A stretch of 64,000 bases of DNA from an uncultured Methanosarcinales archaeon. GTDB lineage: Archaea > Halobacteriota > Methanosarcinia > Methanotrichales > Methanotrichaceae. Both the position numbers and the translations under genes were made by a program. Every line of letters begins with the position of its first letter. Position 1 is the stretch's first letter. The stretch spans positions 192,001 through 256,000 of the forward strand of contig CAWJKV010000002.1 of the NCBI GenBank assembly GCA_963843555.1, in the 5' to 3' direction. The notes under the pieces were generated by a model. The model was not told the DNA's origin. It was given only the letters and a program-made list of their open reading frames with translations, and made no database searches. Below are positions 15,875 through 61,844 of this stretch, one piece after another.

Positions 15875-15880
15875 ATTTTG

Positions 15881-16831: not shown

Positions 16832-16996
16832 TGAAAACAAGTGATCCAACTATTACTATGAAGTGGAACTGCAGTCGTCCGCCCATCTTTGGAACTGAGC
16901 CGCATGTGAGAGTCCTTCATCCGGATGATGACGAATCCAATATCCTTTCAGGAATCTCAAGAGTTCCTGGGATTCAATCGCAGGAAGCTTTTGCAT
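16828..16996 (-). pseudogene. hicA: HicA toxin, frameshifted and C-terminally truncated
   Basis: MQKLPAI..ELLRFLK/GFVIIRMKDSHMRL...VPLH then an early stop; GSH reads DSH. Confidence 0.7.
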
Positions 16997-17210
16997 CTTG
17001 GACGACTTCCAGCTCTCTGAAACCGACGAATGTATTGATGGTCTCGATCTTTGTCTCTTCCAGACACATCTCAACAACTTCCAATATGTTTTTCATGGCT
17101 TCTTCTACGGTCTCGCCCCAGGAGTGACATCCCTTAAAAAGCGGGCAGCTAACTATGTATAGGCCATCTTCATCGATTTCAATGAGAATTGGCAAGTGCA
17201 GCTTTTCCAT
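16974..17210 (-). CDS. hicB: HicB-family antitoxin
   Basis: DEDGLYIVSCPLFKGCHSWGETVEEAMKNI.E. Confidence 0.88.
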   Translation of the reverse strand: MEKLHLPILIEIDEDGLYIVSCPLFKGCHSWGETVEEAMKNILEVVEMCLEETKIETINTFVGFRELEVVQDAKASCD

Positions 17211-17444
17211 GATTGGATCAACCCATTTAGTCTTGCGAGCTGCAGACTTAAAGGTATTTCGCAATAGTTACAGTGCTTAACCCAATGAGATCCCAAAAGG
17301 CAAAATTAGGTTTGAGCAGGCGGGACCAGAGCTTATCTGTCTGCTCAGTAGCTGAGACGATCTGGATCGTAGGTCGTCGCCAATCGGTTTTCTGGATCTC
17401 TATTACTGGATGGGCACTGCTGATATGCGCCGCTGATTCGCAGT

Positions 17445-17505
17445 GGGCGCAGCGCGCGAAAAACGCGCGGTACAGTCTGGGCGCCTCAACGCCGGACAGG
17501 CTTGG
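17445..17505 (+). repeat. Structured dispersed repeat, copy 1
   Basis: GGGCGC-[CGCGCG AAAAA CGCGCG]-...GGGCGCCTCAACGCCGGACAGGCTTGG. Confidence 0.85.
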
Positions 17506-17612
17506 ACAAAACGATAGAGAAGGTTTAGTCTAGGTCCGGGCCATCGCAGGAGGTGACCGTGCCGCAGATCGTTATCATCGAGCCTCGCATGCCTGCGGCA
17601 TAGGTGCCCCCA

Positions 17613-18836
17613 TCAATAAGCCACATCCCTCCTTTTCCTCTCGGGGCTCGTCAGCCATGAATGCAAATCCGCCAGCACATTTTCTCCTATCGGCCCCAGG
17701 GGTTGAATCCAGTTCTTTGATGGATAGAAGGTGTGTCCCAGCCCAGGATAGATGATCAGGGTATGGTCGGGGTGGTTGACCTCCACTAATTTCTGCTCGA
17801 GCAGCATGGCCTGCTGGACAGGAACCTGGGTGTCATTCTCTCCCTGGAGGATCAGGATGCTGGCAGAGACATTGCCGATGATCTCGGTGGTATTGTTCAG
17901 GGCGAAGTAGGACTGCAACCATATACTTCCTGGGAACGTCTCGTTGGAGAGCAAAATTTGGGACTGCTTAATTATCAGTGGTTTCAGGTCATCCTGAATG
18001 CTGATGTTGCCCGTCTGGTTGGAGGTTATGACCGAGTGCCACTGGTACTGGTCGGTCGTATTGTTCTTCTCGACAAGGCCTGCAGACGGAAGCGGAGCAA
18101 TATTCTCGCCAGGTGTTGCCATGATCGCTTCCACTTCCTTTATGGACAACAGGCCATCATGGTTGGTGTCAATGATCTGATCTGCATATAATAGTGGCCT
18201 GGTTATCAACTGGAATTCCAGAAGGTTCCTCAGATTCTCTGCTGTCGCAGACATGAGAACTATATTCTTGACCTCTTTATTCTCCAGGGCAATCCTAGGG
18301 GCGACTATTGCTCCTTCGCTGTGGCCGAGCACAGTTATGTCGTTCCTGTCTACCTCAGGCTGGGCTATGAGTACCTTCAGGGCCTTCTCGGCATCGCTCT
18401 TATAATTCTCGTAAGTAGCATTGTTGACGATACTGGCATTAAGGATAGTACCGTTCAGACCTACCCCACGTTTATTGAACCGGAGGACGGCAATGCCTCT
18501 CGATGAGAGGTATTCGGCTATCTGCAGAAACGGCCTTGAAGGTTCACTTGATCCGGTGACTATTGGCGGAAGGTACTCGTTCATGTCTGTCGCCCCACTG
18601 CCCTGAATGAGAAGAACCCCTGGGAAGGGGCCTTCCCCCACTTTGGGCAGAGTGAGCTGGGCATCTGTATTCAGGCCGTCTCCAAGATCTATTACCAGGT
18701 CACGAGCTGCGAACTCCTGAGCACCTGCATTGGGAAGAGACTGCAGAATGATCAGGACGACGATCAAGGGAAAAGAGGCGAATGCTATGCGTTTCTTCTT
18801 TTCGGGTTTAAGCTGGCTGTTTTTGAAAGAGATCAT
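17613..18836 (-). CDS. Exported alpha/beta hydrolase
   Basis: Signal anchor, LLIQGSG, GHSEG nucleophile, QGENDTQV, GLGH. Confidence 0.88.
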   Translation of the reverse strand: MISFKNSQLKPEKKKRIAFASFPLIVVLIILQSLPNAGAQEFAARDLVIDLGDGLNTDAQLTLPKVGEGPFPGVLLIQGSGATDMNEYLPPIVTGSSEPSRPFLQIAEYLSSRGIAVLRFNKRGVGLNGTILNASIVNNATYENYKSDAEKALKVLIAQPEVDRNDITVLGHSEGAIVAPRIALENKEVKNIVLMSATAENLRNLLEFQLITRPLLYADQIIDTNHDGLLSIKEVEAIMATPGENIAPLPSAGLVEKNNTTDQYQWHSVITSNQTGNISIQDDLKPLIIKQSQILLSNETFPGSIWLQSYFALNNTTEIIGNVSASILILQGENDTQVPVQQAMLLEQKLVEVNHPDHTLIIYPGLGHTFYPSKNWIQPLGPIGENVLADLHSWLTSPERKRRDVAY

Positions 18837-18933
18837 ATTGAGATGTTGTCTCCACGGGTTTTAAGTTTTGGCCTCCTTGCTATGTGGGCGAACTTAATGA
18901 TTGTAAATCAATATCAGCTTCGCACTTTCTTCC

Positions 18934-19005
18934 GGGGTTCCGCGAGTCGGCCTTCTGGGCCTCCCGCGCTGTGGCTGGGGCCCCCTCAACGCCGGGAAGG
19001 CTCGG
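18934..19005 (+). repeat. Structured dispersed repeat, copy 2
   Basis: GGGGTTCC...GGGGCCCCCTCAACGCCGGGAAGGCTCGG; closest to copy 5. Confidence 0.85.
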
Positions 19006-19265
19006 ATAATGGTGGTGAATGGTTGATGCTATCTGGCCATGTTTGCTCTTCCGATTGCAGGTGATTAAGCTGCAGACTGATAGAGGGTCAGAATGTCGGC
19101 CCCTGTGTTTGAAACGTCGTAGCCCATTGATTGGCCAAATGGTTACGAATTGCCACCACAGAGCCACAGAGCGCACGGAGGACTAACAGAGGACTCGACT
19201 ATTCCATTCCAGGCAATATGTTGCAGCGCAGGATTAAATACGAGCACAAGACATGTATAATTTAG

Positions 19266-19499
19266 ATGAGAACGCTTCGTTATAGAATTCTGATCAGGCT
19301 GGAGACTGACGGAACATATACGGTTATTGTCCCGTCTCTACCAGGATGTTTGACCTTTGGCAATACTATTGAGGAAGCTTTAGAGATGGCAAAAGAAGCC
19401 ATCGAAGTATATATCGAAAGCCTTGCCGCCAGAGGCAAAGAGATCCCTGTCGAAGAAGATCAGATCGAAGCAACTATAACAGTTGTTGCAAATGCATAA
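19266..19499 (+). CDS. hicB: HicB-family antitoxin
   Basis: YTVIVPSLPGCLTFGNTIEEALEMAKEAI. Confidence 0.9.
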   Translation: MRTLRYRILIRLETDGTYTVIVPSLPGCLTFGNTIEEALEMAKEAIEVYIESLAARGKEIPVEEDQIEATITVVANA

Positions 19500-19715
19500 G
19501 TTGCCCGTCCTGTCACCAGAGAAGCTTGCCAGAGCTCTTGAAAAGAAGGGATTTGTGCTAGACAGGATTAGGGGCAGCCATCATGTTTATTGCCATCCTG
19601 ATCTTGATGTCACGGTTACAATTCCGTTCCACAAAAAGAGGTAGGCAAAGGACTGCTTATCGAAATCATGAAACAGGCAGGAATAACACGCGAAGAGCTA
19701 TTGGATCTCTTATAA
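19492..19715 (+). CDS. hicA: HicA toxin (1-nt shift in the A-run near 19635)
   Basis: MHKLPVLSPEKL..ALEKKGF...RGSHH...IPFH / VGKGLL..I.KQAGITREELLDLL. Confidence 0.85.
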
Positions 19716-19909
19716 ACGAGGGAGTGCGAATTATCGGGTACTTCCCCCGTTTGCGACCTTTCCATCTGGCTGATCGGGGTTCCACCTGCCCGAATCCCAC
19801 GCAAGACCGACCGACGCCTGCGAGAACGCTCCAGCCGCGAGCTTGCGATTCGAGCCTCTTTTCATGAATAGTAGTAACCGTGATTTGGTATCCCTAACTC
19901 TCCTAGCTT

Positions 19910-22000
19910 TCATTCATTCGGTCGCCCTGGAAGATATGTTTCCCCAACAATCTTCTCCGCTGCTCGGAAAGCAAATGCAGCTATCAGCATAGTAGGATTT
20001 ACTCCCGGCGACTCCGGCAGAACGGATCCATCGACTACAAACATGTCGGGATACACTTTGACTTTGTCAGGTGTGCCGTCGTTCCAAAAGACCTGGCCGT
20101 AGCTGTTGACCGCTCCTTCATCCATATTGGCGCCCATGGGACATCCGCCAAGAGGATGAAGAATTACTGCCGTGCTGCTCTTGGGATCCTTGAAATTCCA
20201 GAAGGGAGTATAGACCCTATTTGCACCACCGGCATCCATCTCTCCTGCCAGCTTTTTCATTCCGTCAACAGTAGCCTTAAGAACCTGGTTGTTATCTGCC
20301 GCCGGCCATTTGACGAATATCTTCTCGCCTGGATCGTTCGTGGTCTCCAGGTCTTTCCACTTGGGTTTGAGGCTAATGGATCCTGACTTTTCACCTCTGC
20401 CCATTCCCGAAAAGGCGTAGAACCTGGAGATGCGCTCCTCAGGAGACGCAAATGGATCGGTACGGTCGGTTGAGACCCAGGTCAGCAGTGCTTCCATGAA
20501 ATTTCGTGTGGATTCGTCCTTTGCAGTGCCGGTTTTGAGGATATCAACCAGGACCTTCCTGGCTGAAGGATCGTTCCAAATGGTGGTGAACAGACGAACC
20601 AGTGATGTGGTGGATATGCCCCCTGATAGGATGCCCAAAACCCCGAATTTGAACAGTAAATTCAGGTCCTTAGTCAGATCATCCAGGTGGTTTAGATTTA
20701 CTTCCTTTGCGCCATGAGCGAGCAGTTCCAACATCGTTGCAACAAGTGGTGCGACCATCTTGGGAAGAGTCGTGTCTTCAATGGCAAAAGCGAAATCGTT
20801 GCCCCCGGTCTTAAAAGAGACATACGATGTATTTATGGGCCCTCGGGTCACATCCAGTGTTCTGTGCTCCAGGGTCATGAACCCGAAGATGTCGCCATTT
20901 GTTACGAATCTTGTACCCAGTGCTTTGCTCAATTTGAGGCTGCCTCTTGCAGAGCACTTCAGGAGCAGCTCTGTAGAACCCAGTGAGCCTGCCGCGATTA
21001 TTAACGACCTGGCGAGGACATATTTCTGCGTTCTTTGCTCAGTTTTAGGATCGTACTGGAAGTATTTTATCTTATACTGATATTCGTCCCCTTCTTTGAA
21101 TTCGATATCATAAACTTCACACAGCTCGCGAACCTCCATGGGCTTGGGCTTTTTGGGTGGCTCAGGATTTATGGCGTCGAATAGCTGATGGCTGAAAGTA
21201 TGTCTGGCATTGGGAACGCACCCCAGAACGCATCGCCCCTGTCGCTGGCAGACGTTTTCCTGGCTTTTCAGTAGCCTCTTGAGCTCATCAAGGGGCGGAT
21301 TTGAGGCATCAAATAGGCCTGCTGGGACATTAGTTGTCGTTAGATCCAGATCGAAATCCCCTACCAATTTACCGTCTTCGTTTTTGACGTTGACAATATC
21401 GGTGTTCCCGCCATCGATCAGCGCCTGGCCGGCATCCTGAAAGGCTTTTGTCTTTTCTAGCAGGTTTCGGCTTAGACCGGCATTGGTTGTTATCCTGTTC
21501 ACGACAAGAAATTGCAAAACCTTATCGAAATAGTCTTCAAGTTTCTTGCCCTCAAATTGGGTCGGCCAGTTCTTGTAAACGCTGCTAGGCGGCTCGAGTG
21601 TGACATTGGAATAAACCAGAGAACCGCCACCTACACCACTGGCCTGTATTGAATGTACGTTGCCTAAAACCTTGTAATCGTAAAGCCCTGTCTTGGAGAG
21701 CGTTCTATTGGCAGACAGGAGTTCCAGAAGACCGGAAGTGTTATCCGGATGGGGCCAGAAGTGATAGGGCCTGCCGTTATCTTCAAGAAATTCGCGCATG
21801 TTGGGGGACGTCTTTCTGCTTGCTTTGGGAACGAAATTCATCTCATGGGAGAGCCACCATTGTCCTCGTTCGAAGACACAAACCTTTTTGTCGGTACCAT
21901 TTTTGGTGTTATCATCCTGGAACTTATTCGCAAGAGACAAGGCGAGTATGGTCCCTCCGAATCCTGAGCCCACAACCACCGCCTCGAAATTATCAGTCAT
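19910..22000 (-). CDS. GMC oxidoreductase, cholesterol-oxidase-like
   Basis: VVGSGFGG, ERG, GVGGGSLVYSNV, C..QGRC..GC, HPLGGC, VVDGS, GVNP. Confidence 0.88.
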   Translation of the reverse strand: MTDNFEAVVVGSGFGGTILALSLANKFQDDNTKNGTDKKVCVFERGQWWLSHEMNFVPKASRKTSPNMREFLEDNGRPYHFWPHPDNTSGLLELLSANRTLSKTGLYDYKVLGNVHSIQASGVGGGSLVYSNVTLEPPSSVYKNWPTQFEGKKLEDYFDKVLQFLVVNRITTNAGLSRNLLEKTKAFQDAGQALIDGGNTDIVNVKNEDGKLVGDFDLDLTTTNVPAGLFDASNPPLDELKRLLKSQENVCQRQGRCVLGCVPNARHTFSHQLFDAINPEPPKKPKPMEVRELCEVYDIEFKEGDEYQYKIKYFQYDPKTEQRTQKYVLARSLIIAAGSLGSTELLLKCSARGSLKLSKALGTRFVTNGDIFGFMTLEHRTLDVTRGPINTSYVSFKTGGNDFAFAIEDTTLPKMVAPLVATMLELLAHGAKEVNLNHLDDLTKDLNLLFKFGVLGILSGGISTTSLVRLFTTIWNDPSARKVLVDILKTGTAKDESTRNFMEALLTWVSTDRTDPFASPEERISRFYAFSGMGRGEKSGSISLKPKWKDLETTNDPGEKIFVKWPAADNNQVLKATVDGMKKLAGEMDAGGANRVYTPFWNFKDPKSSTAVILHPLGGCPMGANMDEGAVNSYGQVFWNDGTPDKVKVYPDMFVVDGSVLPESPGVNPTMLIAAFAFRAAEKIVGETYLPGRPNE

Positions 22001-31940: not shown

Positions 31941-33800
31941 ATGAAGACACAAAACAGTAAGAAGGCCACCTCTAACCTGAGGCAGCACACCGAGAATAAG
32001 GTGACGGGAGAAGGGACAATCGACCTCGCTTTCTGAGGCGGATGTGAGGGCGTTCTGTCACGAGCTCGAGGTCCACCAGATCGAACTGGAGATGCAAAAT
32101 GAGGAGCTCAGGCGGGTGCAGGCTGAGCTTGCCGCATCGGAGGAGAAGTACCGCGACCTCTACGAGTTCGCGCCCATCGGCTACTTCACCCTTGAATCGT
32201 CAGGGCAGATTCGAGAGGCAAATCTCGCCGGCGCTTCTCTCCTGGGAGTGGAGCGATCCTGCCTGGTGAACAACCGGTTCCAGTCCCATCTTGACCAGAG
32301 GAGTCTTCCGGAGTTCAATGACTTCTGCCGCCGTGTGATGGAGTCGGATGCTAAGCAGACGGCAATGTTCCGGCTTAATGGCACGGCAAGAAAAGAGAAA
32401 GCTGAACTCTGGGTGCTGATTGAAGCCCGGGCGATCCAGGATGGAATCAGCCACGGCTTCAGGATGGCGGTCATCGACATCACAGAGCGCAAGCGAATGG
32501 AAGAAGAGATAATGGAGAGGACTGCAGAGCTGGTGTTGGCCAAAGAGAATGCAGAGGCTACAACCAGGACCAAGGCAGCGTTCCTGGCCAACATGTCCCA
32601 TGAACTCAGGACGCCCATGAACGCAGTGATTGGATTCTCCGGCCTCCTCCTGGAAGAATCCATGACTGCAGAGCAGAATGAGTTCATCGAAGGCATCAGG
32701 AAAGGAGGCGAAGCTCTCCTGGCCATAATCAATGATATCCTGGATTTCTCCCGGGTGGAAAAAGAGATGGGGCTGGAACGGAGCATCAACCGTTCAGCCT
32801 CAAGGACTGCATCGATGAGTCCCTGGACCTGGTGGCGGTCCAGGCCAGCAATAAGGGTCTCTCTCTGTCCAGCATCATCTTTGACGGCACTCCGGAGGCC
32901 ATCGTCGGAGACCATGGCAGGCTCAGACAGATCCTGGTCAACCTGCTCGCCAACGCCGTCAAGTTCACAGACATGGGAGATGTATCTGTGTCGGTCTCCT
33001 CAAAAACCCTCGAAGATAACAGGCACGAGCTATCCTTTAAGGTTACGGATACCGGCATTGGCATACCCCAGGACAGGATAAACGAAATCTTTGAGCCGTT
33101 TACGCAGGTTGAACGGAATGCAAGACGCAAGCGTGAAGGTGTTGGCCTGGGCCTGGCCATATCCAGGCAGCTTGTGGAGCTCATGGGCGGGAAGATAAAA
33201 GCCGAGAGCGTTCCCGGCCGGGGCACGACCTTTAGCTTCTCAATCCAGGCCGAGACACTTCAAGGCAGACAGCTTGATTCTGGAGAAAAAAAGAAGGAAG
33301 CATCCTTTGAGGTCGCTCCCAAAGGGAAATCTTTACGGGTACTCGTGGCTGAAGACGACCCGCTGAACCAAAAAGTGCTCATGGAGATGCTAAAGCGATT
33401 AGGCTGCAAGCCAGAGGCTGTGTATGATGGTCTGGAAGTCCTCCAGGCCCTGCAAAGCCAGGATTACGATCTGGTGCTGATGGATCTCAGTATGCCGGAA
33501 ATGGATGGGATCACTGCCACTCAGGCGATACGAAAAATTCGGCCAGGGAACGGGCCCAGGATTGTTGCCGTCACAGCCTATGCTCTTAAGGGCGACCGCG
33601 AGAAGTGTCTCGAAGCCGGCATGGACGACTACATCAGCAAACCGGTACAAAAGAAGGAGCTGGAAGCCATTCTGAGGAATATTCATGCCTTCGGAAAGAC
33701 TGCTGAGCTGCTTATCGTGGAAATATTGAAGATATTACTATTGATATTGTCAAAGTGTCTTATTGAAATTGATTTTCCATCTTCCGGCCAAAGGAAGTAA
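31941..33800 (+). CDS. PAS-HisKA-HATPase-REC hybrid histidine kinase, frameshifted
   Basis: [60 protein letters not shown]. Confidence 0.9.
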
Positions 33801-34586: not shown

Positions 34587-37500
34587 ATGCAGGATCAAGA
34601 ACCGAAGAAAGAAGAATTGGGAAAAACCCAGGCGGAAGAGCCGGAGGAGGGCCCTCTCGCAGTCGTCGGCATTGGGGCCTCAGCCGGCGGCCTGGAGGCT
34701 TTAAAAGAGTTCTTCACACACATGCCTGCAAAGAGCGGGATGGCGTTCGTCGTCATCTCTCACCAGGATCCGGCACAGACCAGCCTTCTGCCCGAGATCC
34801 TCCAGAGGTACACCGAGATGCCCGTAGTTGAGGTCGGTGAGGATGGAGTGCAAGCCAGGCAAAACACAGTCTATACCAAGCCTTCAGACTCCGACCTCGC
34901 AATCTTCCATGGTAGACTTGTCCTCCTCAAATCCGCCAGGGCAGGCGGAGTGGAAACGACCGTCGATATCTTCTTCAGGCACCTCGCAGAGGACCGGGAC
35001 GGAAAGGCAGTGGGCATAATCCTATCCGGCATGGGGGACGATGGAACTTTGGGCATCCAGGCCCTGAAAGAGTATACTGGCATGGCCATGGCCCAGGACC
35101 CGTCTACAGCCAAGTTCGGGTCCATGCCTCAGAGCGCGATTGCCACCGGGCTGGTGGATTACATCGCTCCTGCCGAGGACCTTCCACGACCGCCTTATTG
35201 AATATATCAGCACCAGGTCGCAGCTAATGCAGGTGCGCCCCATTCAGACAGAGACCCCGGTTCCTGAGAACGCCCTGTCCAGGATCTTCGCCCTTAATTC
35301 GCACCAAGACCCAGCCAGGACTTCTCCCAGTACAAGCGAAGCACTGTCATGCGAAGAATCGAGCGCAGGATGAGCCTGCACCAGCTGACCCGGATGGATG
35401 ACTACATCCGCTACCTCCAGGAGAATCCGCCAGAGGTCGAGATTCTGGCAAAGGAGATGCTCATTGGAGTCACTCAGTTCTTCCGGGACCCCGCTGCCTG
35501 GGAGCGACTTATGCCCGCGCTTTCAGCTCTGATTCAATCCAAACCCGAAGGCAGCATGCTGAGAGTCTGGATAGTGGGCTGCTCAACAGGGGAGGAGGCA
35601 TACACAATGGCCATTATGCTCCAGGAGTACCTCGAGTTCCCTGGGCAAGGTTGGAATTATCCAGTTCCAGATCTTTGCCACGGATACCGATCGAGAGGCC
35701 ATCGATATAGCACGGAGTGGGAAAGTATCCGGCAAACATCGAGGTGGATGTCTCTCCCGCGCGGCTGGAACACTTCTTCACCAGAGAGAACGGGACCTAT
35801 CAGATCAGCGAACGCCTGAGAGAGAACGTGATCTTTGCTCCTCACAATATCATCAGTGATCCGCCGTTCACCCGCCTGGACGTTCTATCCTGCCGGAACC
35901 TCATGATTTACCTGTCCACAGAACTGCAAAAGAAGCTCATTCCGCTCTTCCATTACGCACTGAACCCCGGTGGAATTCTCTTCCTCGGGACTGCTGAATC
36001 GATCGTCGGGTACAAAGACCTCTTCAGGGCTCTGGACAGCAAATGTAAGATCTTCCAGAGGAGCGACGTTCTCACCCATGACGGCCCTGGTGAGCTGCCT
36101 ACGGTATTTGCAGCACCGCTTATCTGCACATGAAGCTCAGGCGTTCCCTGCTGTGGCTAAAGGGCCTTCCATCACCGCGATTGCCCAGGAACAGCTGCTT
36201 GAGAGGTTTGCTCCGCCTGCAGTCATTGTCACCGAGAAGGGCGATATTGTTTACTTCCACGGACATACCGGACCAGTATCTGGAGCCGTCCCCGGGGAAA
36301 GGCAAACCTGAACATCTTTGCCATGGCCCGGGAGGGCCTGAGGTACTCCATACTCTCTGCCCTCCGCACTGCATCCAGAGAGAGTGCGCGAGGTCGGAGC
36401 GGAAGAGCTGATAAGAACGGAGAGCGGGCCAAAAAGGGTCCGCATGACAGTGCAGCCGATACCAAAGCGTCCCAGAATGGCGAATCTCTTCATGGTGACA
36501 TTTGAAGAGGTCCAGGAACCCGAGCCCATGCAGACTCAGGCCGCAGAGCCGGGCAGAGAAGCGCATCTTGCCGGATGCGCGCATTGCAGAGCTGGAGAGA
36601 GAGCTTGTCGATGCCAGAGCACAGTTGCAGCACATGGCCGAGGATATGCAGTCCTCTCAGGAGGAACTGACCAGCATGAATGAGGAGCTCCAATCTGCGA
36701 ATGAGGAACTCCAGAGTACGAACGAGGAGCTGACCACAAGCAAAGAGGAGCTCCAATCGATGAATGAGGAGATGCTCACAGTGAACGCCGAGCTCCAGGC
36801 CAAGATCGAGGAGCTGACCCACAACCAGGACGATATGCGTAACCTGCTGCAGGGCACAAGGATACCCGTTGCTCTTCCTGGACAAAGATCTCCAGGTGCG
36901 TCGGTTCACAGATGAAGCGAAACAGGTCGTCCGACTGATCGAGAATGATATCGGCCGCCCAATCACAGACCTCAAGAGCGAACCTGCTGGATGAGTCCTT
37001 TGCCAGAGATTTGCGAGAGGTGCTGGACACGTCTGCAGTCCAGAGAGAAACAGGTAGAAGACGACTGAAGGGAAATGGTTTCAGATGCGGATCCTGCCCT
37101 ACCGCACCTCCGAGAACCGCATCGATGGCCTGGTCGTCACGTTCAGCGATATCACGGAGATCAAGCAGCTTGAGCATGTCCATTCAGGATGCACGTAACT
37201 ATGCCGAGAACATCATTGCGACCGTCATGGAACCCCTTGTGGTGCTGAACGCTGATTTGAGGGTCGTCTCCGTGAACCGATCGTTCTATACCACATTCAA
37301 AGTAACCCCTGAGGAGACGGAAGGAGAGCTCCTGTTACTCCATTGGAAATGGCCAATGGGATTTGCCGGAGCTCCGCCATCTTCTCGACAGATATTCTTG
37401 AAAAGGATACCGAGTTTGAAGGATTCAAGATAGAGCAGGACTTCCCAGGGATCGGACACCGCACCATGTTGCTGAATGCCCGGAGAATCCATTCCGATCT

Positions 37501-37608: not shown

Positions 37609-39388
37609 ATGCAAAATGATAAGACTGCGGCCATCTCTGACCTGAGGCAGCACGCCGAAAACGCAGCGACGAGAGAAGGGACGATCTGATTGGCTCCCTG
37701 AAGCGGATGTGAGAGCGCTCTGCCACGAGCTCGAGGTCCATCAGATCGAACTGGAGCTGCAAAATGAGGAGCTTCTGAGGGTGCAGGCAAAGCTTGCCGC
37801 CTCTGAGGAGAAGTACCGTGACCTCTACGAGTTTGCTCCCATTGGATATCTTCACTCTTGGACCTTCCGGGGAGATTCTGGAAGCAAATCTCTCTGCAGC
37901 CTCTCTCCTGGGAACGGAGCGGGCAAACCTGGTGAATAACCGGTTCCAGGCTTATCTCGACCAGGGCAGCATTCAGGAGTTCGATGACTTCTGCCGCAGT
38001 GTGATAGGAGTCGGATACAAAGCAGACTTCAGAGTTCCGGCTTTACAGCGGGGGAAGGAGAGAGCAAAATCCCCTCTAGTTGCTGATAGAGGCCCGGGCG
38101 ATTCAGGATGGAGTCCATAGCAGTTTCAGGATGGCAATTGTCGATATCACTGTGCGCAAGCGCATGGAAGAAGAGCTCAAAAAGAGGACTGTAGAGCTGG
38201 TGGCGGCCAATGAGGCGGCTCTGGCCGCAACCAAGGTCAAGGCAGCGTTCCTGGCCAACATGTCCCACGAGCTGCGCACGCCCATGAACGCGGTGATAGG
38301 GTTCACAAGTCTCCTCCTCGATGATTACTATGGCTCCAGAGCAGAAGGAGTTCATTGAGGGAATCAGGGAGGGAGGTGAAGCCCTCCTGGCCATAATCAA
38401 TGACATTCTGGATTTCTCCAGGCTGGAAAAGGGGATCGAGCTTGAGAATCATCCATTCAGCCTCAAGCAATGCATTAACGAATCCATGGACCTGGTTGCC
38501 GTCCAGGCCGGTGATAAGGGTCTGAATCTGTCCAGCACCGTCAGATACGGTACACCGGACACAATCGTCGGAGACCACGGCAGGCTGAGACAGATCCTGG
38601 TCAACCTGCTCGCCAATGCCGTCAAGTTCACGGATAAGGGAAGAGTTTCTGTGTCGGTTTCCTCAAGAAGCCTGGAAGATAACAGGCACGAGCTCTCCTT
38701 TAGGGTCGCGGACACAGGCATTGGAATACCCCGGAGCAAGATAGAAGAGATCTTTGAGCCGTTCAATCAGGTTGAAAGTAGCATAAGCCACCAGCAAGGT
38801 GGTGTCGGCCTGGGTCTGGCCATATCCAGGCAGCTTGTAGAGCTCATGGGCGGGAAGATCAAAGCCGAGAGCACTCCTGGCAGTGGCACGACCATCAGCT
38901 TCATAATCCAGGCTGTTGCCGTTCCGGGCAGAAAGCCTGATTTTGCGGAAATTGAAAAGCATGAGTCCGTCGTGGGCGAGGGTAGACTGGAAAAGAAATC
39001 TTTGCGGATACTTGTAGCCGAGGATAACCCATCGAACCAGAAGATGCTCTTGCAGATGCTGAAAAGATTGGGCTACAAGGCAGACGCTGTGGCTGACGGG
39101 CTGGAAGTCCTTCAGTCCCTCAAACGCCAGGATTATGATCTGGTGCTGATGGATGTTCGCATGCCGGAGATGGACGGGATCACTGCCACCCGGGAGATAC
39201 GAAAATTATGGCCCGAGAACGGTCCCAGGATTATTGCCGTCACTGCCTATGCTCTTAAGGGGGACCGCGAGAGGTGTCTTGAAGCCGGCATGGACGACTA
39301 CATCAGCAAACCTATACAAAAAAAAGAGCTGGAGGCCATTCTCAGGAATTATTCGGTGCTTGCTGAAGAGACTGGTGGAAACCGATGA
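37609..39388 (+). CDS. PAS-HisKA-HATPase-REC hybrid kinase, paralogue of 31941-33800, frameshifted
   Basis: Same motifs and long near-identical DNA stretches. Confidence 0.9.
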
Positions 39389-54119: not shown

Positions 54120-54293
54120 ACCTGCCCATCTCCTGTTTCGATTCTATCCTTACATTCGCGGAATTTGCCACGGACATTTCAGCTAATCCTTTTTGCGGTC
54201 CAATGTTCATATTTTAATCCTTGATTTCTTGGACATTGCTTTCCTGGACACGATCTTGGACAATTGCATTTTGCTCTTGCTGATCGCTGCGGT

Positions 54294-54357
54294 GGGGCGA
54301 CGCGCGCGGGTGTTGCGCGAGGGGGGAAGGGGCGCCCTCAACGCCGGGCAGGCTTGG
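54294..54357 (+). repeat. Structured dispersed repeat, copy 3
   Basis: GGGGCGAC..GGCGCCCTCAACGCCGGGCAGGCTTGG. Confidence 0.9.
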
Positions 54358-54443
54358 CAAACAATAGAAAAGGTTGATTTTTAAAATCTTGTTTTAAAGT
54401 TGCCTTTGGACTTGGGTATGTACTGTTAAATCCAGGAAAAATA

Positions 54444-54776
54444 TCACAGATAGTCATATAGACACGTTATTTTGTCCAGCAGCTCAATTATTCTATCCTT
54501 CTGGAGGATCTCAGCAGTCTTCCCATAAGCCTCATCATGATGCCCAACATATAAGAACACAATACAGTTACCTATTATCATATAGGCAATAACAAAAGGA
54601 TCAACATGGATACCGCGAACCCCTTTGAGTCCATAGCTTTTAGGCTCCCCTATCTCAGGATTAGTTAATATCTGATCAATTTTATCGATGAACCTGTCTT
54701 TAAGAGCCTTGTTCTTCCTGGTTAGCTTAATGAACTGTTTGTCAAACTCAGGAGCCCTGTGGTAGATATAGTCCAT
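54444..54776 (-). CDS. RelE/ParE-family toxin
   Basis: EFDKQF.KL, NPEIGEPK...LKG.R..HV.PFVI.Y, VGHHDEAY. Confidence 0.82.
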   Translation of the reverse strand: MDYIYHRAPEFDKQFIKLTRKNKALKDRFIDKIDQILTNPEIGEPKSYGLKGVRGIHVDPFVIAYMIIGNCIVFLYVGHHDEAYGKTAEILQKDRIIELLDKITCLYDYL

Positions 54777-54789
54777 AATAAAAGAGTGG

Positions 54790-54960
54790 CTACAGGTCTC
54801 TGAGAGAGTTTAGGAACTCATCTTTGTTTTTGTATGTCTTCCCCTTACCAGCTTTAAACTCCTTTATACCTCTGATAACTCCTGATGCAAACTCATTGGC
54901 TTTAAGTTCTTCCAGGTCAGATTCTTCTCTCCTTGGAGCAGGCTGAACTACCGTCTTCAT
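54790..54960 (-). CDS. 56-aa putative antitoxin
   Basis: Hand translation ...VIRGIKEFKAGKGKTYKNKDEFLNSLRDL, directly upstream of the RelE gene. Confidence 0.7.
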   Translation of the reverse strand: MKTVVQPAPRREESDLEELKANEFASGVIRGIKEFKAGKGKTYKNKDEFLNSLRDL

Positions 54961-55103
54961 CCTGTTACATATGAGTGGCGAGAATATTTAAAATCACCTA
55001 TCTGGTGGACGCCAAAATCTAAGCCACCAATTTATATCGAATGTCTCTGGCAAGTGCTTCAATTCGTGTCTATGTGCAACTTGACCTCGGACAATTGCAT
55101 TTT

Positions 55104-55834
55104 AATACATAGGGAGTGCGGAGGGTCACGAATTCCCCATCCTTTAGGGTGGGGATGAAGTGAACCCTCGCCCATTCTTTGTGCTCACCAAAATTGATTA
55201 AACATCACTTCTTTTAGGATGAGTTTATACTTGGCACCTTAGCCACAGGTGGTGCCACCCACCTAGGGCTAGGATGTGATAAGCTTGGAATTGCGCAGCT
55301 TCAGCCATGGCTATGGTCAAATCACCTACCACATCGTGTTGGTGCCCAAGTATCGATACAAAATATTCTATGATAGGCGAGTTAAAAAGGATTGCGAGTT
55401 GATCCTCAAAGATATTTGCATGGAGCAAGGATATAAAATTCATGCTATAGAAATTGTGGCGGATCATATTCACTTGTTCTTGGAATTCCACCCAAGCACT
55501 TCCCTATCAAGAGTCGTTCAATATTTGAAAGGAGGCAGCTCGAATAGGTTGTTCAAGCTTCATCCTGAATTGAAGAAACGCTATTGGGGTGGAAGCCTAT
55601 GGTCAAGTGGCAAGTTCTTTCGATCTGTAGGAAATGTGACTGCGGATACAATCAAGCACTATATTGAGGAATCTCAGGGGCAACCGAAAGCAGAGATTCA
55701 GTCATGCGGATCTGGGGGATCTGGGCAGCGAAGACTCGACGATTTCTGGATTCCATAAAACCGGGCGTGAGGGCGTGCGGCCCGAAGCATACCCCATCCT
55801 TTAGGGTGGGGTGGCCGCACGCAGTTTGATTTTT
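55104..55834 (+). mobile_element. IS200/IS605-family element (tnpA only, no tnpB)
   Basis: Identical subterminal hairpins CCCCATCCTTTAGGGTGGGG at 55135-55154 and 55792-55811; ends inferred by comparison with the uninterrupted flank at 54258. Confidence 0.88.
55276..55758 (+). CDS. tnpA: Y1 HUH transposase
   Basis: YHIVLVPKYR, DHIHLF, LKGGSS, LWS..F, IKHYIE. Confidence 0.95.
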   Translation: MISLELRSFSHGYGQITYHIVLVPKYRYKIFYDRRVKKDCELILKDICMEQGYKIHAIEIVADHIHLFLEFHPSTSLSRVVQYLKGGSSNRLFKLHPELKKRYWGGSLWSSGKFFRSVGNVTADTIKHYIEESQGQPKAEIQSCGSGGSGQRRLDDFWIP

Positions 55835-55849
55835 GCAGCTGGCTACATC

Positions 55850-55912
55850 GGGGCACTGCGCGCGGGTGTTACGCGCGGGGGGAGGGGCGCCCTCAACGCC
55901 GGGCAGGCTTGG
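55850..55912 (+). repeat. Structured dispersed repeat, copy 4
   Basis: Near-identical to copy 3. Confidence 0.9.
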
Positions 55913-56009
55913 ATACTTTGGTGGCATCCTCTAGCGCTGGGTCTCGGATGTTGTAGCGGCATAGACGAACATCCAGAAAGTCAGGAATCCAGAAAGTAAG
56001 GAGGCCATA

Positions 56010-56423
56010 TCAAATTCCAAGCAGGGGAAGAATATCTTTCGTGGTTAAGACCCTGGCGGCATTTTGTCTTTTGAAATGAGCGTCATTGCTCCAGATAGGT
56101 GCATCGAGGAGCATGGCCAATGCCAAGAATGGCGAATCGGCGATGTCAATATCCATCATTATGCCTGTGGCCCTATCCCGAAAGGGCTCAATATCCTGTA
56201 AAGGAACCAGGCTCATTCTGCCGAAGATCAATTGAATCAAGTATCCAAATTGTTCGTCAGTGAGCTTCGATTTATAGATCAATTCTGCGTTATGCTTCAG
56301 GATCTCCTCTTGAGCAAAAGCAAGAGTATACATATCGAACGGGGATAAAAGAATAATCTTCCTCGTGAGACCATCTCTTAGCAGCGCGGAGATCATTATA
56401 TTTGTATCCACTACGATCTCCAT
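56010..56423 (-). CDS. PIN-domain toxin
   Basis: IVVDTNIMISAL, D..DSPFLALA, IWSND.HF. Confidence 0.88.
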   Translation of the reverse strand: MEIVVDTNIMISALLRDGLTRKIILLSPFDMYTLAFAQEEILKHNAELIYKSKLTDEQFGYLIQLIFGRMSLVPLQDIEPFRDRATGIMMDIDIADSPFLALAMLLDAPIWSNDAHFKRQNAARVLTTKDILPLLGI

Positions 56424-56665
56424 CGCAACTTCTCCACAATTCCTCTCTTTATCTTATGATCGATCTCGTCAACGTCCTCTTCGTTCAGCTCACTCTCCTT
56501 GAGGAGATCATCGCAGATCATGGAGATGAATACGTCATTTTTTACATCTGTTGATATCTGATGTTCTATCCTTCTTTTCACCAGAACATCAAGTTCTTTG
56601 CTCGCTTTGATTTTGAGCTCCAATTCTTTTGGAATATCGACTTCGATGGACATCTTTGAACCCAT
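56411..56665 (-). CDS. Putative antitoxin of the PIN toxin
   Basis: Overlaps the toxin start; LLKESEL.EEDV.EI..KIKRG motif typical of archaeal antitoxins. Confidence 0.7.
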   Translation of the reverse strand: MGSKMSIEVDIPKELELKIKASKELDVLVKRRIEHQISTDVKNDVFISMICDDLLKESELNEEDVDEIDHKIKRGIVEKLRWRS

Positions 56666-56982
56666 AAGAGAATTGTCCGACTTGAATTTAAATCTGCCTG
56701 CTTGGCTCCTGATCTTCCCAGACATCTTCATCGCTGGCGCCGTTCGCCAATGAATCCAATAGCGTGCAAGCTAGCCCATCGGTCGCTTCCGATGCCCCGG
56801 GCAGCGCTCGTGGCCGCTGCATCTGGGCAGGGCTGTTCCGGAACTGCAAACACTATTGTTTGGTCGGCAGCCGCTTCTGAAACCTGCCACCAGATCCGGG
56901 GGGACGCTTGGAAAGATCTGATATAGCGGAAGACCGGCCAGTGATTGATCAGTCTCTCGTTGATCAGCTTCCGTGCTTTTCC

Positions 56983-57054
56983 GGGGTGCCGCGAGTCGGC
57001 CCTGCGGGCCTCCTGCGCTATTGTAAGGGCGCCCTCAACGCCGGGCAGGCTTGG
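56983..57054 (+). repeat. Structured dispersed repeat, copy 5
   Basis: GGGGTGCC...GGGCGCCCTCAACGCCGGGCAGGCTTGG. Confidence 0.9.
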
Positions 57055-57120
57055 ATACTTTTGGGCCGAAAGCGATCCAATCTAATGCTTAACTCAAGGC
57101 ATTTTTTATCTGATTAGGAT

Positions 57121-57279
57121 TCAAGGTTCAAAAAAGCAAGTTCTGGGCTTCGCCAGCTCCCTTATCCTCCAGGAATCAGCTTCAAGCTTGTCTAATAATG
57201 GGCTATCTTTGAGTGCGCCAAAATATTCAGATAGGTCCACCTTGTCTTCCTTTTTGGAACTCTCTATTTTCATATTCAT
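57121..57279 (-). CDS. Orphan VapB-like antitoxin or fragment
   Basis: GGAGGTGA RBS; DLSEYFGALKDS.LLD.LE; no toxin follows. Confidence 0.5.
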   Translation of the reverse strand: MNMKIESSKKEDKVDLSEYFGALKDSPLLDKLEADSWRIRELAKPRTCFFEP

Positions 57280-58309: not shown

Positions 58310-58750
58310 TCTCATCTATCTCGCTGGCGTATTCTTGGTTGCACAGACCACAGCGTGAATGTTCCTGGGAAGCCTTTCATAGCTACGCCATCGTGCCGCT
58401 GCCATCCTAACTGTTTGTGCTGCACGGCACCGAGCCGATCGATGTCTTCTTTGGCCCGATCGCTGAGCCAGATTTCTGCGTCTTTAAGGCGCCGACCACG
58501 CGGGCGGCGAAGTTCACGGTGCCACCAAACACATCGCTTTCCTCCACATGCATCGGCCCGATATGAATGCCGGCACGGATTTGTATCTGCGGATGGCCCG
58601 TGTTTCTCTGAAATGCCCTCGCATAGTCCAGCGCTGCGTCTGCGGACTTGAACGCTGCCATGAAGCTGTCGCCAACGGTTTTGATTTCTCGGCCATTGAA
58701 CTGGGCGATCAGCTTGCGGCTTTGGGCAAAGTGCGCTCGTCGAACTTTCC
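58310..58750 (-). pseudogene. 5'-truncated class III nucleotide cyclase fragment
   Basis: IKTVGDSFMAAF, RAGIHIG, DVFGGTVNFAARV, MKGF; no FTD..GST motif upstream. Confidence 0.75.
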
Positions 58751-58810
58751 TTAGGATGTTTTCTGAGCCAGTTATGACATTAAAATGCCGACTTGCATTT
58801 GGGCCTAGCT

Positions 58811-61800
58811 CTAAATGATCCGATTATCGCTAAGACGCTCCAAGAGTTCGGAGAGCGCTTTGCCCTCGGGTGTGGTCCATTTCTTATCCAACCAATGAGC
58901 ACGTTGAAACAGCTCCATATCGCTAAGGCGCATACAAATACCATGCGATCACCAAGACAGCGATTTTCTCTGTTTCGTCTTTTAGCTGGTCAAATGCTTC
59001 AAGTATACCATGAAGCTCTTCACGCGGAACGGAGGCACAATTCCACCCAACATCTCGAGATACTACTGGTTGGCTGGCAATGGCCCAATAAGTTATCCTC
59101 TGCACGGTCGCATTGGTACTTTGCCGCCAAAGCATATACAGTCTACTCAACACGTCAAGCTCTGGTGGTGGCAGCCAAACACGGCAAGCTCCGAGCCAGA
59201 CAAGCGCCCAGGTTGCAGCAAATTGCTCCGCTTTGTGCTCACTGTTCAGAGTTTTCACAAACGCATCACCAGCGAGGCGAAGAGATCCACTGCAGGCCCT
59301 AATGCCATCTGGATAATCATTTAGCCGATAACAAAGATACATAATACCGAGGCAGCCTTCGCACTTAGTGATCCTCTCCGGTGATTCTAGCATCTTAACA
59401 AGATGCTCGGCTGCTTTAGCCCATCCGGCATCATCTTCGGTTTCGATCAACTGCCAATAGACAACCATAGCCATAGGGTCCCCAGCATCTAACGGATCAG
59501 TAGCCCCAGGTGCAAGGAATGACTTGCGGGACTCCTCACGTAATTCTTTGCCATATCTGCCCCTAGCTAACATCGTGCCGAAATCGGCAACATCGAACGA
59601 CCCTGATCGGACAAGTTCTCGAATAGCCGCCCGAATAGTTTCTGGTCGCGCGGCCGCTTCGTCAGCCAAGCAATTGCCAAGGGCCTGAGACAGAGTATAT
59701 TTTTCATTCAAATTTTCGCGCGTGACCGATCCTGTCTTCTCCGTGAGTCGCTTAATCAGCATCTCAGTCGCTTTTCCACCCAACACCGCGGCGAGCGGTA
59801 TGACCTCGTGCCACGCCTCCTTTTCGAAATGTGGTTCAAGCACATCGGCCAACGTATCCGTGTCTTTCGCATCGCGATGCCAGCCCTTAACCATTGCTTG
59901 CGCGGTGAGGAACTCCTGGAATGTGAGGTGTCGAAACTCAAAGAACTCAACAAGTCGGCCGTCCTCCACATCGTGCCCAGCCATTTGGAGCAAGCTGCTG
60001 CGGTCTTCAACCCGATGGACGAACTGATCCACCGTGTCGCTAACGTAACCAAGTTCGGTGGGCATCGCATCACGGGCCTCCTGGAGAAGTGCAGTCAGCT
60101 TGGGGCGACTGATTTTCTGCACGCCGTCGAGCATCGTCGTGGAGGCCACGTAACAGAGTTGTGGCAGGGCTTCTTCCTTCGGAATCGGTTCGTAGCCTTC
60201 GGTGTTCCACGTCATGAGCAGTACTCTCGACCGCCTCGCCGTGGAGCCACAGCCCCGGCGCGTGGGTAGTGAGCCAACCCATCGCTTGACCAATAGTAGA
60301 GTGGTGAAGAAGCAGCGGGTTAACAGCGAGACCCTTGATACGGTCGTTCTTAAGGATCGCATCTGCGAGCTTTTCGGCTTCGATGCGAACTTTCTCCGTA
60401 TCGTCTACCACTTCCCGGTGCCAAGCTACACAAAGGCGTAGGATATCGTTTGAGTCAAATTCTGAAATAGTTGCGTGAGTGCAAATAGGCGCCAAATGCG
60501 CTGCTATATGTCTGAAAACCGGCTTCGCGAGACGTGATAACCGTGGCGATGCCCGGGTATGCTTGTAGCGCAGCGCGCAATGTGCATACGAATGCGGCAC
60601 GGTCGCCAGGGATCGGAGTATCTCATCCAAACCGTCTATAAGTAGTAAGACACGACCAGCGAGTAACTCATGATCCACATAGTTGCGGAAAACTGCAGCA
60701 TTCTGGCGGACTGGCTCACGCTGAGATATTGCTTCAAGCAATTGTGCAAAAGAGCCGCGGGCTAGGTCTCGCAATTCACGGCAGCGGAAGAAGAGTGGCA
60801 ACCAAACTTTTTGAGGGAGGCTGTCATCTATCTGCTCTCGCCTTGCCGGATCGGCATAGGCGATCGCAAGCCGCTTAACGAGCGTGGATTTGCCGCCACC
60901 TGGTGCGGCAAGCAGCGCAAGTCGTGGATGCTCTGCAAGTACTGCACCCATATCTTGACGCTGTGTCATTTTCTGTTGACCTCCTGTTTTGACCGTGACG
61001 TCTAAGTGAAGAGGCACAAAGAGATTCTCAAGTCTGAGTCGGCGTGAACCAACATCGCTATCTGCAGGGAGTCCGTCTAATTGGATGAAGCCACATTCGC
61101 TATCGAGGTATTTGCAATAAGCGGCAAGGGCTTCGGCGACACGAGCTTCTGTGTCTAGACCAGATGGCGGTTCGGGATTTAGGCAGATGAGTCTATCGAG
61201 TCCGCCTCTGCATTCTCGGTCAGCAGCAATGACTTCTTCAGCAAGCGCACGGGCGAGTGGGGTTCCGTCTGAGTGAATCAAGGCAAAGTGGGTGCGTGCT
61301 TTGCCCTGTGGTATAGTAGATGGCCCAAATCCATCCTCGTTCGTGAGCCAAGAGCTCGGCCTGAGGATCAAGATTGAGAGCCTAGAGGGATGCACTGCAT
61401 CGGCCAGCGAGTTCAGTCGCGTGGTCTTTCGGTATGAGAATACGACCATCCACCAATTCTCTGACAACCTGTGATCCATAAGGGTACTATCTTCGTCTGC
61501 CGCTGCTTCTCCTGTTCGATGGCTGTTTCTTTGAAGCCACCTAGCGAGATGAAATAGCCCGTGACAGGATGCTTGCCTTCTTGTTCCGCATCAAGAGCGC
61601 CTACGAACTTATTCAAGTCATCACCGCCGATTGGCTCTGAAGTGGCCTTGCACTCTCCAATGGCGCGGCGAGGTTCGAGGCGGTGGTCCGCTGAGAGGTC
61701 GAGTTCGCGCCCGGACTTGTGAATGTTAAGGCGGGGCAGATCGTAACCGAGTGCAACAAAGAGGTCAGCCATCAGTCGCCCGAAGAGATCACCGCGACGA

Positions 61801-61844
61801 TTGGAGTCCTTTTCAAGAATACGGATCGAGATTGAATCTTGCAT
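58811..61844 (-). CDS. Mrr-like restriction endonuclease-NACHT (STAND) protein, multiply frameshifted
   Basis: RELDL...IGECKA PD-(D/E)xK; LLAAPGGGKSTL Walker A; LLLIDGLDE Walker B; NPLLL; FRHLTFQEFLTA; helical C-terminus. Confidence 0.85.

What the first reader, a model, noticed from the sequence alone, without database searches (positions are those of the whole stretch)
54258..57121. Cassette-like array: TA modules separated by a conserved, co-oriented structured repeat
Seen: three copies of a 63-72 bp repeat (54294, 55850, 56983) each sit 67-98 nt past the stop codon of a different minus-strand module (RelE pair, PIN pair, orphan VapB-like gene). Two more copies (17445, 18934) bracket a hydrolase gene and separate it from hicBA pairs on both sides. 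All five have the same orientation and none lies in housekeeping stretches. Inference: one site per accessory unit is the layout of a gene-cassette system, but the site lacks attC polarity (the AAC box follows the hairpin) and no integrase is in the window. It may be an undescribed archaeal recombination/capture site, a REP-like element or a processing RNA.
Basis: partly seen in the sequence, partly recalled or inferred. Interest (0 to 1): 0.8.

Follow-up and report, generated by a model that had tools for sequence, protein, structure and literature searches.

The report
Methanogen hairpin repeat shared with viruses
A short hairpin-plus-box DNA repeat, found only in the methane-making archaeon Methanothrix, its family and viruses that likely infect it, sits where toxin-antitoxin genes, CRISPR arrays and other accessory DNA differ between strains, and it likely serves as a recombination joint for swapping those genes, although no enzyme for it has been found.

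Summary
The five co-oriented copies are real, but the array is not an integron. There is no IntI in 59 genus genomes and no attC partner box.

The repeat belongs to a Methanotrichaceae family with 51 clusters in this genome: singlets, inverted heterodimers and tandem arrays. Of the 51, 16 lie within 600 bp of a TA gene (2.9 expected), but many lie between housekeeping genes. Relatives gain, lose or invert units at the repeat, without one fixed crossover base. Neighbouring copies are co-oriented in 59 of 61 pairs. One subtype carries GNA loops on one strand (102 of 129), a single-stranded-DNA signature. Copies often cap CRISPR trailer ends.

Unexpectedly, the same site lies in frame inside a viral gene, where 195 of 201 synonymous codons are unchanged (244 of 577 elsewhere).

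Best reading (0.5): an archaeal REP/BIME-like repeat that works like phage PeSL joints. Sequence look-ups found no earlier scan note. A Methanothrix MITE note from another genome may or may not be the same family.

The parts
17445..17530 (+). repeat copy 1 (B-type hairpin 17453-17469, box 17479-17505)
   Evidence: hairpin and box missing at the orthologous junction of G077 (L144)
18930..19156 (+). repeat copy 2 (A-type hairpin 18941-18968, box 18978-19005) with a D-type tail near 19066
   Evidence: window 18870-19205 absent in G021 and G005, inverted in G077
54212..54249 (-). decayed CRISPR repeat (same type as the array in L301)
   Evidence: alignment score 42 against a null 99th percentile of 24
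54259..54378 (+). repeat copy 3 (B-type hairpin 54301-54319, box 54330-54357)
54380..54411 (-). possible second decayed CRISPR repeat
   Evidence: score 26, barely above the null; L270 and L301 have an intact repeat at this position
54444..54776 (-). ParE/RelE-family toxin gene
   Evidence: PF05016 E=9e-11
54790..54960 (-). 56-aa putative antitoxin gene
   Evidence: no Pfam hit; the family recurs beside ParE at repeats in relatives
55058..55092 (-). decayed CRISPR repeat at the left of copy 4
   Evidence: score 38
55105..55830 (+).
   Evidence: PF01797 and NF033573; empty alleles in L142 and run X2
55831..55930 (+). repeat copy 4, right part (B-type hairpin 55859-55877, box 55885-55912)
   Evidence: the same box and right flank are joined to A-type left parts in G077 and G079 (L140, L143)
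56010..56423 (-). PIN-domain toxin gene
   Evidence: PF10130 E=3e-25
56411..56731 (-). putative antitoxin partner of the PIN gene
   Evidence: overlapping operon layout; no Pfam hit
56914..57061 (+). repeat copy 5 with its left linker (A-type hairpin 56990-57017, box 57027-57054)
   Evidence: the linker plus hairpin flank a different RelE-like module as direct repeats in L143
57121..57366 (-). orphan VapB-like gene (weak)
   Evidence: PF02697 E=0.0012, below cut-off
16974..17264 (-). hicB antitoxin gene (its hicA partner is frameshifted here)
   Evidence: PF15919; intact hicA in L144
17613..18836 (-). alpha/beta hydrolase gene bracketed by copies 1 and 2
   Evidence: PF12146
19266..19644 (+). 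hicB and truncated hicA
   Evidence: PF15919, PF07927
63815..64000 (-). start of a D-type member of the same family, after another hicBA pair; runs past the window end
   Evidence: G000:C2:255815-256153

Best explanation
The repeat is a non-coding hairpin-plus-box DNA element of Methanothrix, its family and viruses that likely infect it; it occurs as singlets, inverted pairs and tandem arrays at junctions where strains differ in accessory genes, and it likely works as a REP/BIME-like recombination joint whose folded single strand would be recognised by a protein not yet identified. Shown: the family, its three arrangements, its polarity, its enrichment at TA and CRISPR ends, and gain, loss and inversion of units at it. 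Inferred: a gene block lying between two co-oriented copies is looped out or in by recombination anywhere within the 30-150 bp of shared sequence, as with T4 PeSL cassettes, which leaves mosaic copies and co-oriented arrays. Inferred: the minus (gene) strand folds as single-stranded DNA, because A-type loops are GNA on that strand. Inferred: viruses that carry the same site ferry modules between genomes. The window locus is such a stack, built at the trailer end of a decayed CRISPR array, with an unrelated IS200 inserted later.
For: Family and range: 51 clusters against 0 in a shuffled genome. Box in 39 of 59 genus genomes, reversed-pattern control 0. 0 of 24 genomes of other families. D/E form in 2 further genera of the family, 33 of 105 genomes. 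REP/BIME-like layout: inverted A/D-B/E heterodimers around an AT-rich core, tandem arrays of 126-179 and about 350-380 nt period, and 16 of 49 element gaps between convergent genes against 205 of 1167 gaps. Joints: G077 lacks the ParE unit and IS200 (L140). G079 has another RelE-like module between direct repeats of copy 5's linker and hairpin (L143). G021 and G005 lack window 18870-19205, and G077 has that copy inverted. The radical-SAM site is empty in G027 and G029 but holds about 0.6-4 kb of different DNA in G000, G030, G077 and G079. 32 pairs of copies share only the right flank and 51 share only the left flank. ssDNA signature: GNA loop on the minus strand in 102 of 129 A-type stems and on the plus strand in 1; d(GNA) loops with a C:G closing pair are unusually stable in DNA (PMC3201870, passages). 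Constraint at nucleotide level inside a viral gene. A DUF4258 module (putative TA pair) between repeated element flanks in virus L138.
Against: No mobiliser found: IntI 0 of 59, RAYT over cut-off 0 of 59; element within the fetched flanks of 0 of 20 Y1, 1 of 30 tyrosine-recombinase and 1 of 30 IS110 loci. No GTAG or CGTC tag was seen by inspection (not scored). Whole-element folding is barely better than shuffles (z -0.6 to -0.95), and the B stem shows no compensatory changes. No excised circle was seen: the raw-read runs did not cover the test locus, and joints at the repeats have sides of only 29-36 nt. A purely selfish repeat does not explain invariant synonymous codons in the viral gene. 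The TA null does not correct for accessory genes clustering in islands. Gene calls came from my own hexamer model.
Confidence: 0.5

Rival explanations
1. The element is first a viral cis-acting DNA site (priming or origin, nick, packaging or operator site). Host copies are captured versions that a viral protein still acts on during infection, amplifying or circularising the adjacent module.
For: The motif is in frame in 13 of 15 homologues of a viral multi-HTH protein. Synonymous codons are identical in 195 of 201 comparisons inside the motif against 244 of 577 outside. For the one copy found by protein search alone (L399) the figures are 66 of 67 against 33 of 114. A second virus group carries it between divergent gene blocks near ardC (L137-L139, L055, L059). 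Inverted arms around an AT-rich core resemble origin layouts (recalled analogy, not tested).
Against: The motif is missing in 2 of 15 homologues and in L400. The gene lies near a primase-helicase in L136, but L424 shows no such gene in the 12 kb read; in both it is 2-3 kb before the terminase. Only 5 distinct IMG/VR records carried a true copy. The host genome has no homologue of the viral gene. Five of the six gene copies were picked by DNA pattern, which biases the codon count.
Confidence: 0.2
2. The element acts as RNA on the minus strand: a box followed by a hairpin that ends, stabilises, processes or antiterminates transcripts. Its repeated sequence causes rearrangements only as a side effect.
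For: The gene on the box side ends towards the box in 71 of 105 cases (p=0.0004). 14 of 15 nearby CRISPR arrays run along the minus strand, 10 with the element at the trailer end. In the viral gene it is on the sense strand.
Against: One third of box-side genes point the other way. There is no U-tract after the hairpin on that strand. The GNA triloop preference is a DNA feature. No compensatory changes and no Rfam match. The RNA runs were contigs and could not show transcript ends.
Confidence: 0.17
3. The copies are divergent attC sites of an integron array without integrase (CALIN).
For: Co-oriented spacing of 0.7-3 kb and TA cargo. On the gene strand the box starts with a TAWC triplet context (GAT in 188 and GTT in 7 of 267 on the plus strand, partly by selection). 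Archaeal CALINs with TA cassettes exist (PMC9668308, passages).
Against: The partner triplet at the far end occurs in 23 of 250 copies, against 34 of 250 at a control position. No conserved left box. No IntI in 59 genomes. Inverted doublets, empty tandem arrays and an in-frame viral copy are not attC behaviour.
Confidence: 0.05
4. The family is a MITE with terminal inverted repeats, moved by a DDE transposase.
For: Dispersed 350-480 nt doublets with inverted arms; empty orthologous sites. An earlier scan note describes a TA-inserting two-hairpin MITE in another Methanothrix genome (e1-3016780, unchecked).
Against: The inverted arms are internal and the outer ends fade. No target duplication or sharp end in the two filled/empty comparisons examined. 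No copy with a transposase between the arms was seen in this genome's clusters.
Confidence: 0.05
5. The copies are relics of a conserved CRISPR trailer segment, left behind as arrays decayed.
For: 42 repeat-like matches beside 267 copies, 41 in one orientation. Window copies 3 and 4 carry decayed repeats, and the G079 orthologue keeps real repeats.
Against: Most copies have no repeat nearby. At least two unrelated repeat types are involved. The viral gene copies scored none.
Confidence: 0.03

Closest known systems
REP/BIME (REPIN) repeats of bacteria, especially CGTC-type REPs without a dedicated transposase (PMC3733652, PMC6006769, PMC3184786; passages seen)
   Same: GC-rich hairpins between genes; singlets, inverted heterodimers with conserved spacers, and clusters; bias to convergent genes; some in-frame copies; an IS lands in one; no flanked transposase, as for CGTC REPs.
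   Different: Archaeal. Longer, with a 27-nt non-palindromic box. No GTAG/CGTC tag seen. No RAYT in the genus (PMC6006769 found only the IS200 subclass in Archaea). Tens rather than hundreds of copies. Enriched at TA and CRISPR ends. Constrained inside a viral gene.
PeSL cassettes of T4-type phages (PMC2839356; abstract and outline seen)
   Same: A repeated stem-loop cassette between accessory genes; recombination between copies shuffles modules, and the abstract reports mini-circles that may be packaged. This is the proposed working model here.
   Different: PeSLs are sigma70 promoter plus terminator units confined to phages. This element is on host chromosomes and viruses, has no promoter shown, and no circles were detected.
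Integron attC sites and archaeal CALINs (PMC9668308; passages seen)
   Same: Co-oriented sites about 1 kb apart, TA cargo, single-strand hairpin features.
   Different: No R'/R'' pair, no full-length hairpin, no IntI, no fixed crossover.
Rickettsia palindromic elements and other in-frame repeat insertions (PMC3184786, passage; the Methanocaldococcus example is recalled, not read)
   Same: A palindromic repeat read in frame inside a protein gene, in a variable linker.
   Different: Here it is in one viral gene family, with synonymous sites held fixed across proteins only 30-76% identical.

Membership tests
integron attC / CALIN | R'' and R' boxes (RYYYAAC ... GTTRRRY, or GWT variants) at both ends | tested here: not met
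   partner triplet in 23 of 250 copies against 34 of 250 at a control position; no conserved left box
integron attC / CALIN | IntI integrase in the genome or lineage | tested here: not met
   TIGR02249 0 of 59 genomes at E<=1e-20; nearby tyrosine recombinases score far below the IntI cut-off. A CALIN does not need one in cis.
integron attC / CALIN | co-oriented sites spaced by single gene units | tested here: met
   59 of 61 adjacent pairs co-oriented, many 0.7-3 kb apart; 9 pairs are empty repeats under 180 nt apart
integron attC / CALIN | fixed crossover base | tested here: inconclusive
   flank swaps map to the box region, but identity fades gradually on both sides; junctions differ between L140, L143, L144 and C14:84811-84928
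integron attC / CALIN | recombination by IntI, detection by IntegronFinder or HattCI | not testable with these tools
   needs the attC covariance model or a bench assay
REP/BIME/REPIN | extragenic GC-rich imperfect palindrome, multicopy, lineage-specific | tested here: met
   51 clusters covering 49 gaps of 150 bp or more; family-restricted
REP/BIME/REPIN | inverted heterodimers with conserved spacers, and tandem clusters | tested here: met
REP/BIME/REPIN | GTAG or CGTC terminal tag | tested here: inconclusive
   not seen in the consensus by inspection; not scored
REP/BIME/REPIN | REP-flanked RAYT gene | tested here: not met
   NF047646 over cut-off in 0 of 59; 0 of 20 Y1 loci carry the element
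MITE | terminal inverted repeats and target-site duplication | tested here: inconclusive
   none seen in two filled/empty comparisons between different species; same-species pairs not available
IS91/ISCR rolling-circle ends | Y2 transposase in the lineage | tested here: inconclusive
   PF04986 0 of 59, but the control genomes were silent too
PeSL | promoter plus terminator activity; mini-circles | not testable with these tools
   no usable raw reads
known structured RNA | Rfam match; covarying stem | tested here: not met
   no Rfam hit in the window; no compensatory pairs in the B stem of 53 copies

The most novel reading that the evidence does not exclude
A viral cis-acting single-stranded-DNA site, held fixed inside a Methanothrix virus gene, has been seeded across the host chromosome. 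There it serves as an integrase-free cassette joint: infection-borne proteins would circularise and package the TA, CRISPR and restriction modules lying between co-oriented copies, making a virus-driven gene-cassette system in archaea.
Probability: 0.2. Interest if true: 0.85.

Novelty: new variant of a known kind. Interest (0 to 1): 0.62.

Why it matters
Methanothrix is a main acetate-to-methane producer (own knowledge), and how archaea reshuffle defence genes without integrons is little known. A defined site of about 80 bp, shared by host and virus, polar, and found at strain-variable junctions gives a direct handle: it can be recoded in the viral gene, used as pull-down bait, or probed by outward PCR. 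REP-associated transposases are reported only from bacteria (PMC6006769), so an archaeal REP/BIME-like family implies another way of spreading such repeats. I found no description of it in the paper searches, in Rfam, or in the phage and plasmid collections. These searches miss most subscription papers, and I read no supplements.

Tried and rejected
Coding remnant: host copies show no codon periodicity and frames break between copies. The box profile is biased by the exact-match pattern and was not relied on.

Mobiliser searches (IntI, RAYT, Y2, IS110, tRNA-island integrases) found no recurring partner. The integrase beside L347/L451 belongs to a tRNA-targeted island, with the element on the other side of the tRNA (tRNA read by eye). 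Clustering 1182 called neighbours of 267 copies gave Cas1/Cas4, TPR, HicB, ParE, Mrr and PIN families, and no recombinase.

CRISPR leader: rejected, since 10 of 15 arrays have the element at the trailer end.

Read tests: raw-read runs X23 and X24 did not cover L228, so there was no test for circles. Joints at repeats in run X5 are too short to trust.

The first codon count had a wrong motif index and was redone. The stem was mis-registered in both structure calls: still covers four true C-G pairs, and one search is uninformative. The first B-type profile mis-sorted copies and was redone.

Searches for further viral gene copies by protein gave only L136's own record. Four of nine hits (L423, L425-L427) and the one hit (L269) were chance matches. 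The ESM Atlas gave no informative neighbour for the viral protein. Hits in bins labelled Micrarchaeota, Mesotoga and Nanosynbacter are probably misbinned contigs; not tested.
Full report
OBSERVATION. All five copies are present on the plus strand. Each has a CGCG-stem hairpin followed about 10 nt later by a 27-28 nt box. The stop codons of ParE, PIN and the VapB-like gene lie 86, 97 and 66 nt beyond the box, and the hydrolase stop 107 nt. Pfam supports the toxin, hicB and hydrolase labels, and VapB only weakly. An IS-free allele is seen in G079 and in one contig of run X2. A sixth, related element begins near 63815.

THE FAMILY. Titles of relatives' contigs name Methanothrix or Methanotrichaceae. 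In the window's genome (2.68 Mb, 82% complete) three profiles find 51 clusters, and none in a shuffled copy. There are two hairpin types: A, a bulged stem with an inner hairpin, and B, a simple CGCGCG stem. There are three box variants: C as in the window, and the related D and E. A/D and B/E halves often stand back to back around an AT-rich core of about 120 nt, and such units form tandem arrays of about 350-380 nt period. C-type copies also form short arrays. The C box is in 39 of 59 genus genomes, 1 to 31 copies each, with a reversed-pattern control of 0. It is in none of 24 genomes from other families. The D/E form reaches two more genera of the family (33 of 105 genomes). Host copies show no coding periodicity, no Rfam match, and no match in the phage or plasmid collections.

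WHERE IT SITS. Sixteen of 51 clusters are within 600 bp of a HicA, HicB, PIN or ParE hit, against a null mean of 2.9 (maximum 11 in 2000 draws). But 35 of 51 are not, and only 15 of 49 TA loci have an element. The null ignores island clustering, and the four families miss some TA genes. Many doublets lie between core genes, for example argH and eIF5A, phosphoribulokinase, DNA polymerase DP2, carB and the proteasome ATPase. Across 267 distinct C-type copies the commonest neighbours are Cas1/Cas4, TPR, HicB, ParE, Mrr and PIN proteins. Adjacent copies under 5 kb apart are co-oriented in 59 of 61 pairs. The gene on the box side ends towards the box in 71 of 105 cases. Of 15 element-array pairings within 1.2 kb, 14 have the CRISPR array on the minus strand and 10 have the element at the trailer end. 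Forty-two repeat-like matches flank the 267 copies, 41 in one orientation. Window copies 3 and 4 carry decayed repeats, and the G079 orthologue keeps real ones, so this locus is probably a former array end.

STRAIN COMPARISONS. G077 goes from the 53958 gene through an A-type left half to the box and flank of the PIN module, without the ParE unit and IS200. G079 has a different RelE-like module between direct repeats of copy 5's linker and hairpin. G021 and G005 join the hydrolase to hicB without window 18870-19205, and G077 has that copy inverted. G030 lacks window 15523-19929. A site beside a radical-SAM gene is empty in G027 and G029 and holds about 0.6-4 kb of different DNA in four other genomes, with the element seen in three of them. 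Among 179 copies, 32 pairs share only the right flank and 51 only the left. Identity fades gradually around the box, so no single crossover base emerges. These are different species, so ends may have eroded.

STRUCTURE. The inner loop of A-type stems is GNA on the minus strand in 102 of 129 cases and on the plus strand in 1. d(GNA) loops closed by C:G are unusually stable in DNA (PMC3201870, passages). B loops are mostly T-rich on the minus strand. Against a strong structure claim: whole-element folding is only slightly better than shuffles, and the B stem is invariant without compensatory change. The attC test fails: one end has a GAT/GTT triplet, but the partner triplet occurs in 23 of 250 copies against 34 of 250 at a control position.

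NO ENZYME FOUND. IntI: 0 of 59 genomes. RAYT over cut-off: 0 of 59. Y2: none, but the control was silent. The element lies within the fetched flanks of 0 of 20 Y1, 1 of 30 tyrosine-recombinase and 1 of 30 IS110 loci; these were the best-scoring loci, not all hits.

THE VIRAL LINK. Five IMG/VR records carry a true copy. In one group of head-tail viruses it lies between divergent gene blocks near ardC. In L138 a DUF4258 module (putative TA pair) sits between repeated element flanks. In a second group it is read in frame inside a multi-HTH gene 2-3 kb before the terminase. The peptide it encodes is an island in 13 of 15 homologues. Among six gene copies with DNA, codons for shared degenerate residues are identical in 195 of 201 pairwise comparisons inside the motif and 244 of 577 outside. 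For L399, found by protein profile alone, the figures are 66 of 67 and 33 of 114. The pairs are not independent and five copies were picked by DNA pattern, but L399 shows that the constraint is on the DNA. The host of these viruses is inferred from proviral copies in Methanothrix bins (L055, L059, L399).

MECHANISM. Shown: family, polarity, enrichment, unit turnover and viral constraint. Inferred: a protein recognises the folded minus strand, and recombination within the shared sequence moves the block between co-oriented copies, with viruses as carriers (0.5). Rivals are a viral cis-site that drives the process (0.2), an RNA-level 3' or antitermination element (0.17), attC (0.05), MITE (0.05) and CRISPR relic (0.03). 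No circle was observed, because the read runs gave no test.

COMPARISON. It is laid out like REP/BIME repeats, in particular the CGTC class that lacks a flanked transposase (PMC3733652, PMC6006769, PMC3184786; passages). It would work like PeSL cassettes (PMC2839356; abstract and outline). It is not filed as a REP, since there is no RAYT and no tag was seen, nor as attC (PMC9668308; passages). Paper searches showed no description in the listings, and no supplements were read. Scan look-ups by sequence, place and words found no note on this element. One note on a Methanothrix two-hairpin MITE in another genome could not be matched or excluded.

VERDICT. A real, apparently undescribed family: new variant of a known kind, interest 0.62. 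The viral constraint is the part a specialist would find surprising.

Noticed in passing
window 55105-55830: tnpA-only IS200 with close relatives in many genus genomes; contigs of runs X2 and X3 show internally deleted forms that keep only the two end hairpins (joint 55176-55811), i.e. possible non-autonomous derivatives.
   Followed up: partly
L136:4762-5592, L424:5816-7027, P0001-P0015: Unannotated viral multi-HTH protein family with swappable modules, lying before a few small genes and the terminase; only weak HTH/DUF7626 hits.
   Followed up: partly
L160-L165 (G084-G087): Head-tail viruses or proviruses of Methanothrix that encode ArdC, normally a plasmid anti-restriction protein; long GC-rich hairpins lie next to the repeat.
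   Followed up: partly
L004:5750-9700, L006:4500-7050 (G022): Several short CRISPR arrays in tandem, each capped at the trailer end by a 203-nt-period doublet of the repeat.
   Followed up: partly
L095:732-2219, L142:2407-3834: An IS110 element lying among CRISPR repeats in two genomes.
   Followed up: no
L236:3207-3591 (G027): A second copy of the 3' end of argH lies inside the variable block between argH and eIF5A.
   Followed up: no
G000:C14:84811-84928: An A-type and a B-type copy are fused head to head at the palindromic GGGCGCCC segment.
   Followed up: no
window 31964-33625 and 37629-39294; 34587-37433; 58407-61844: Duplicated histidine-kinase block (about 80% identity, 5.67 kb apart); fragmented genes including a CheR/CheB-like one (label by eye) and a Mrr-NACHT gene, possibly long-read assembly frameshifts.
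   Followed up: no
L222:18600-19290, L347:290-560: Copies of the repeat lie just upstream of a tRNA gene (read by eye) that is the target of an integrase island.
   Followed up: partly
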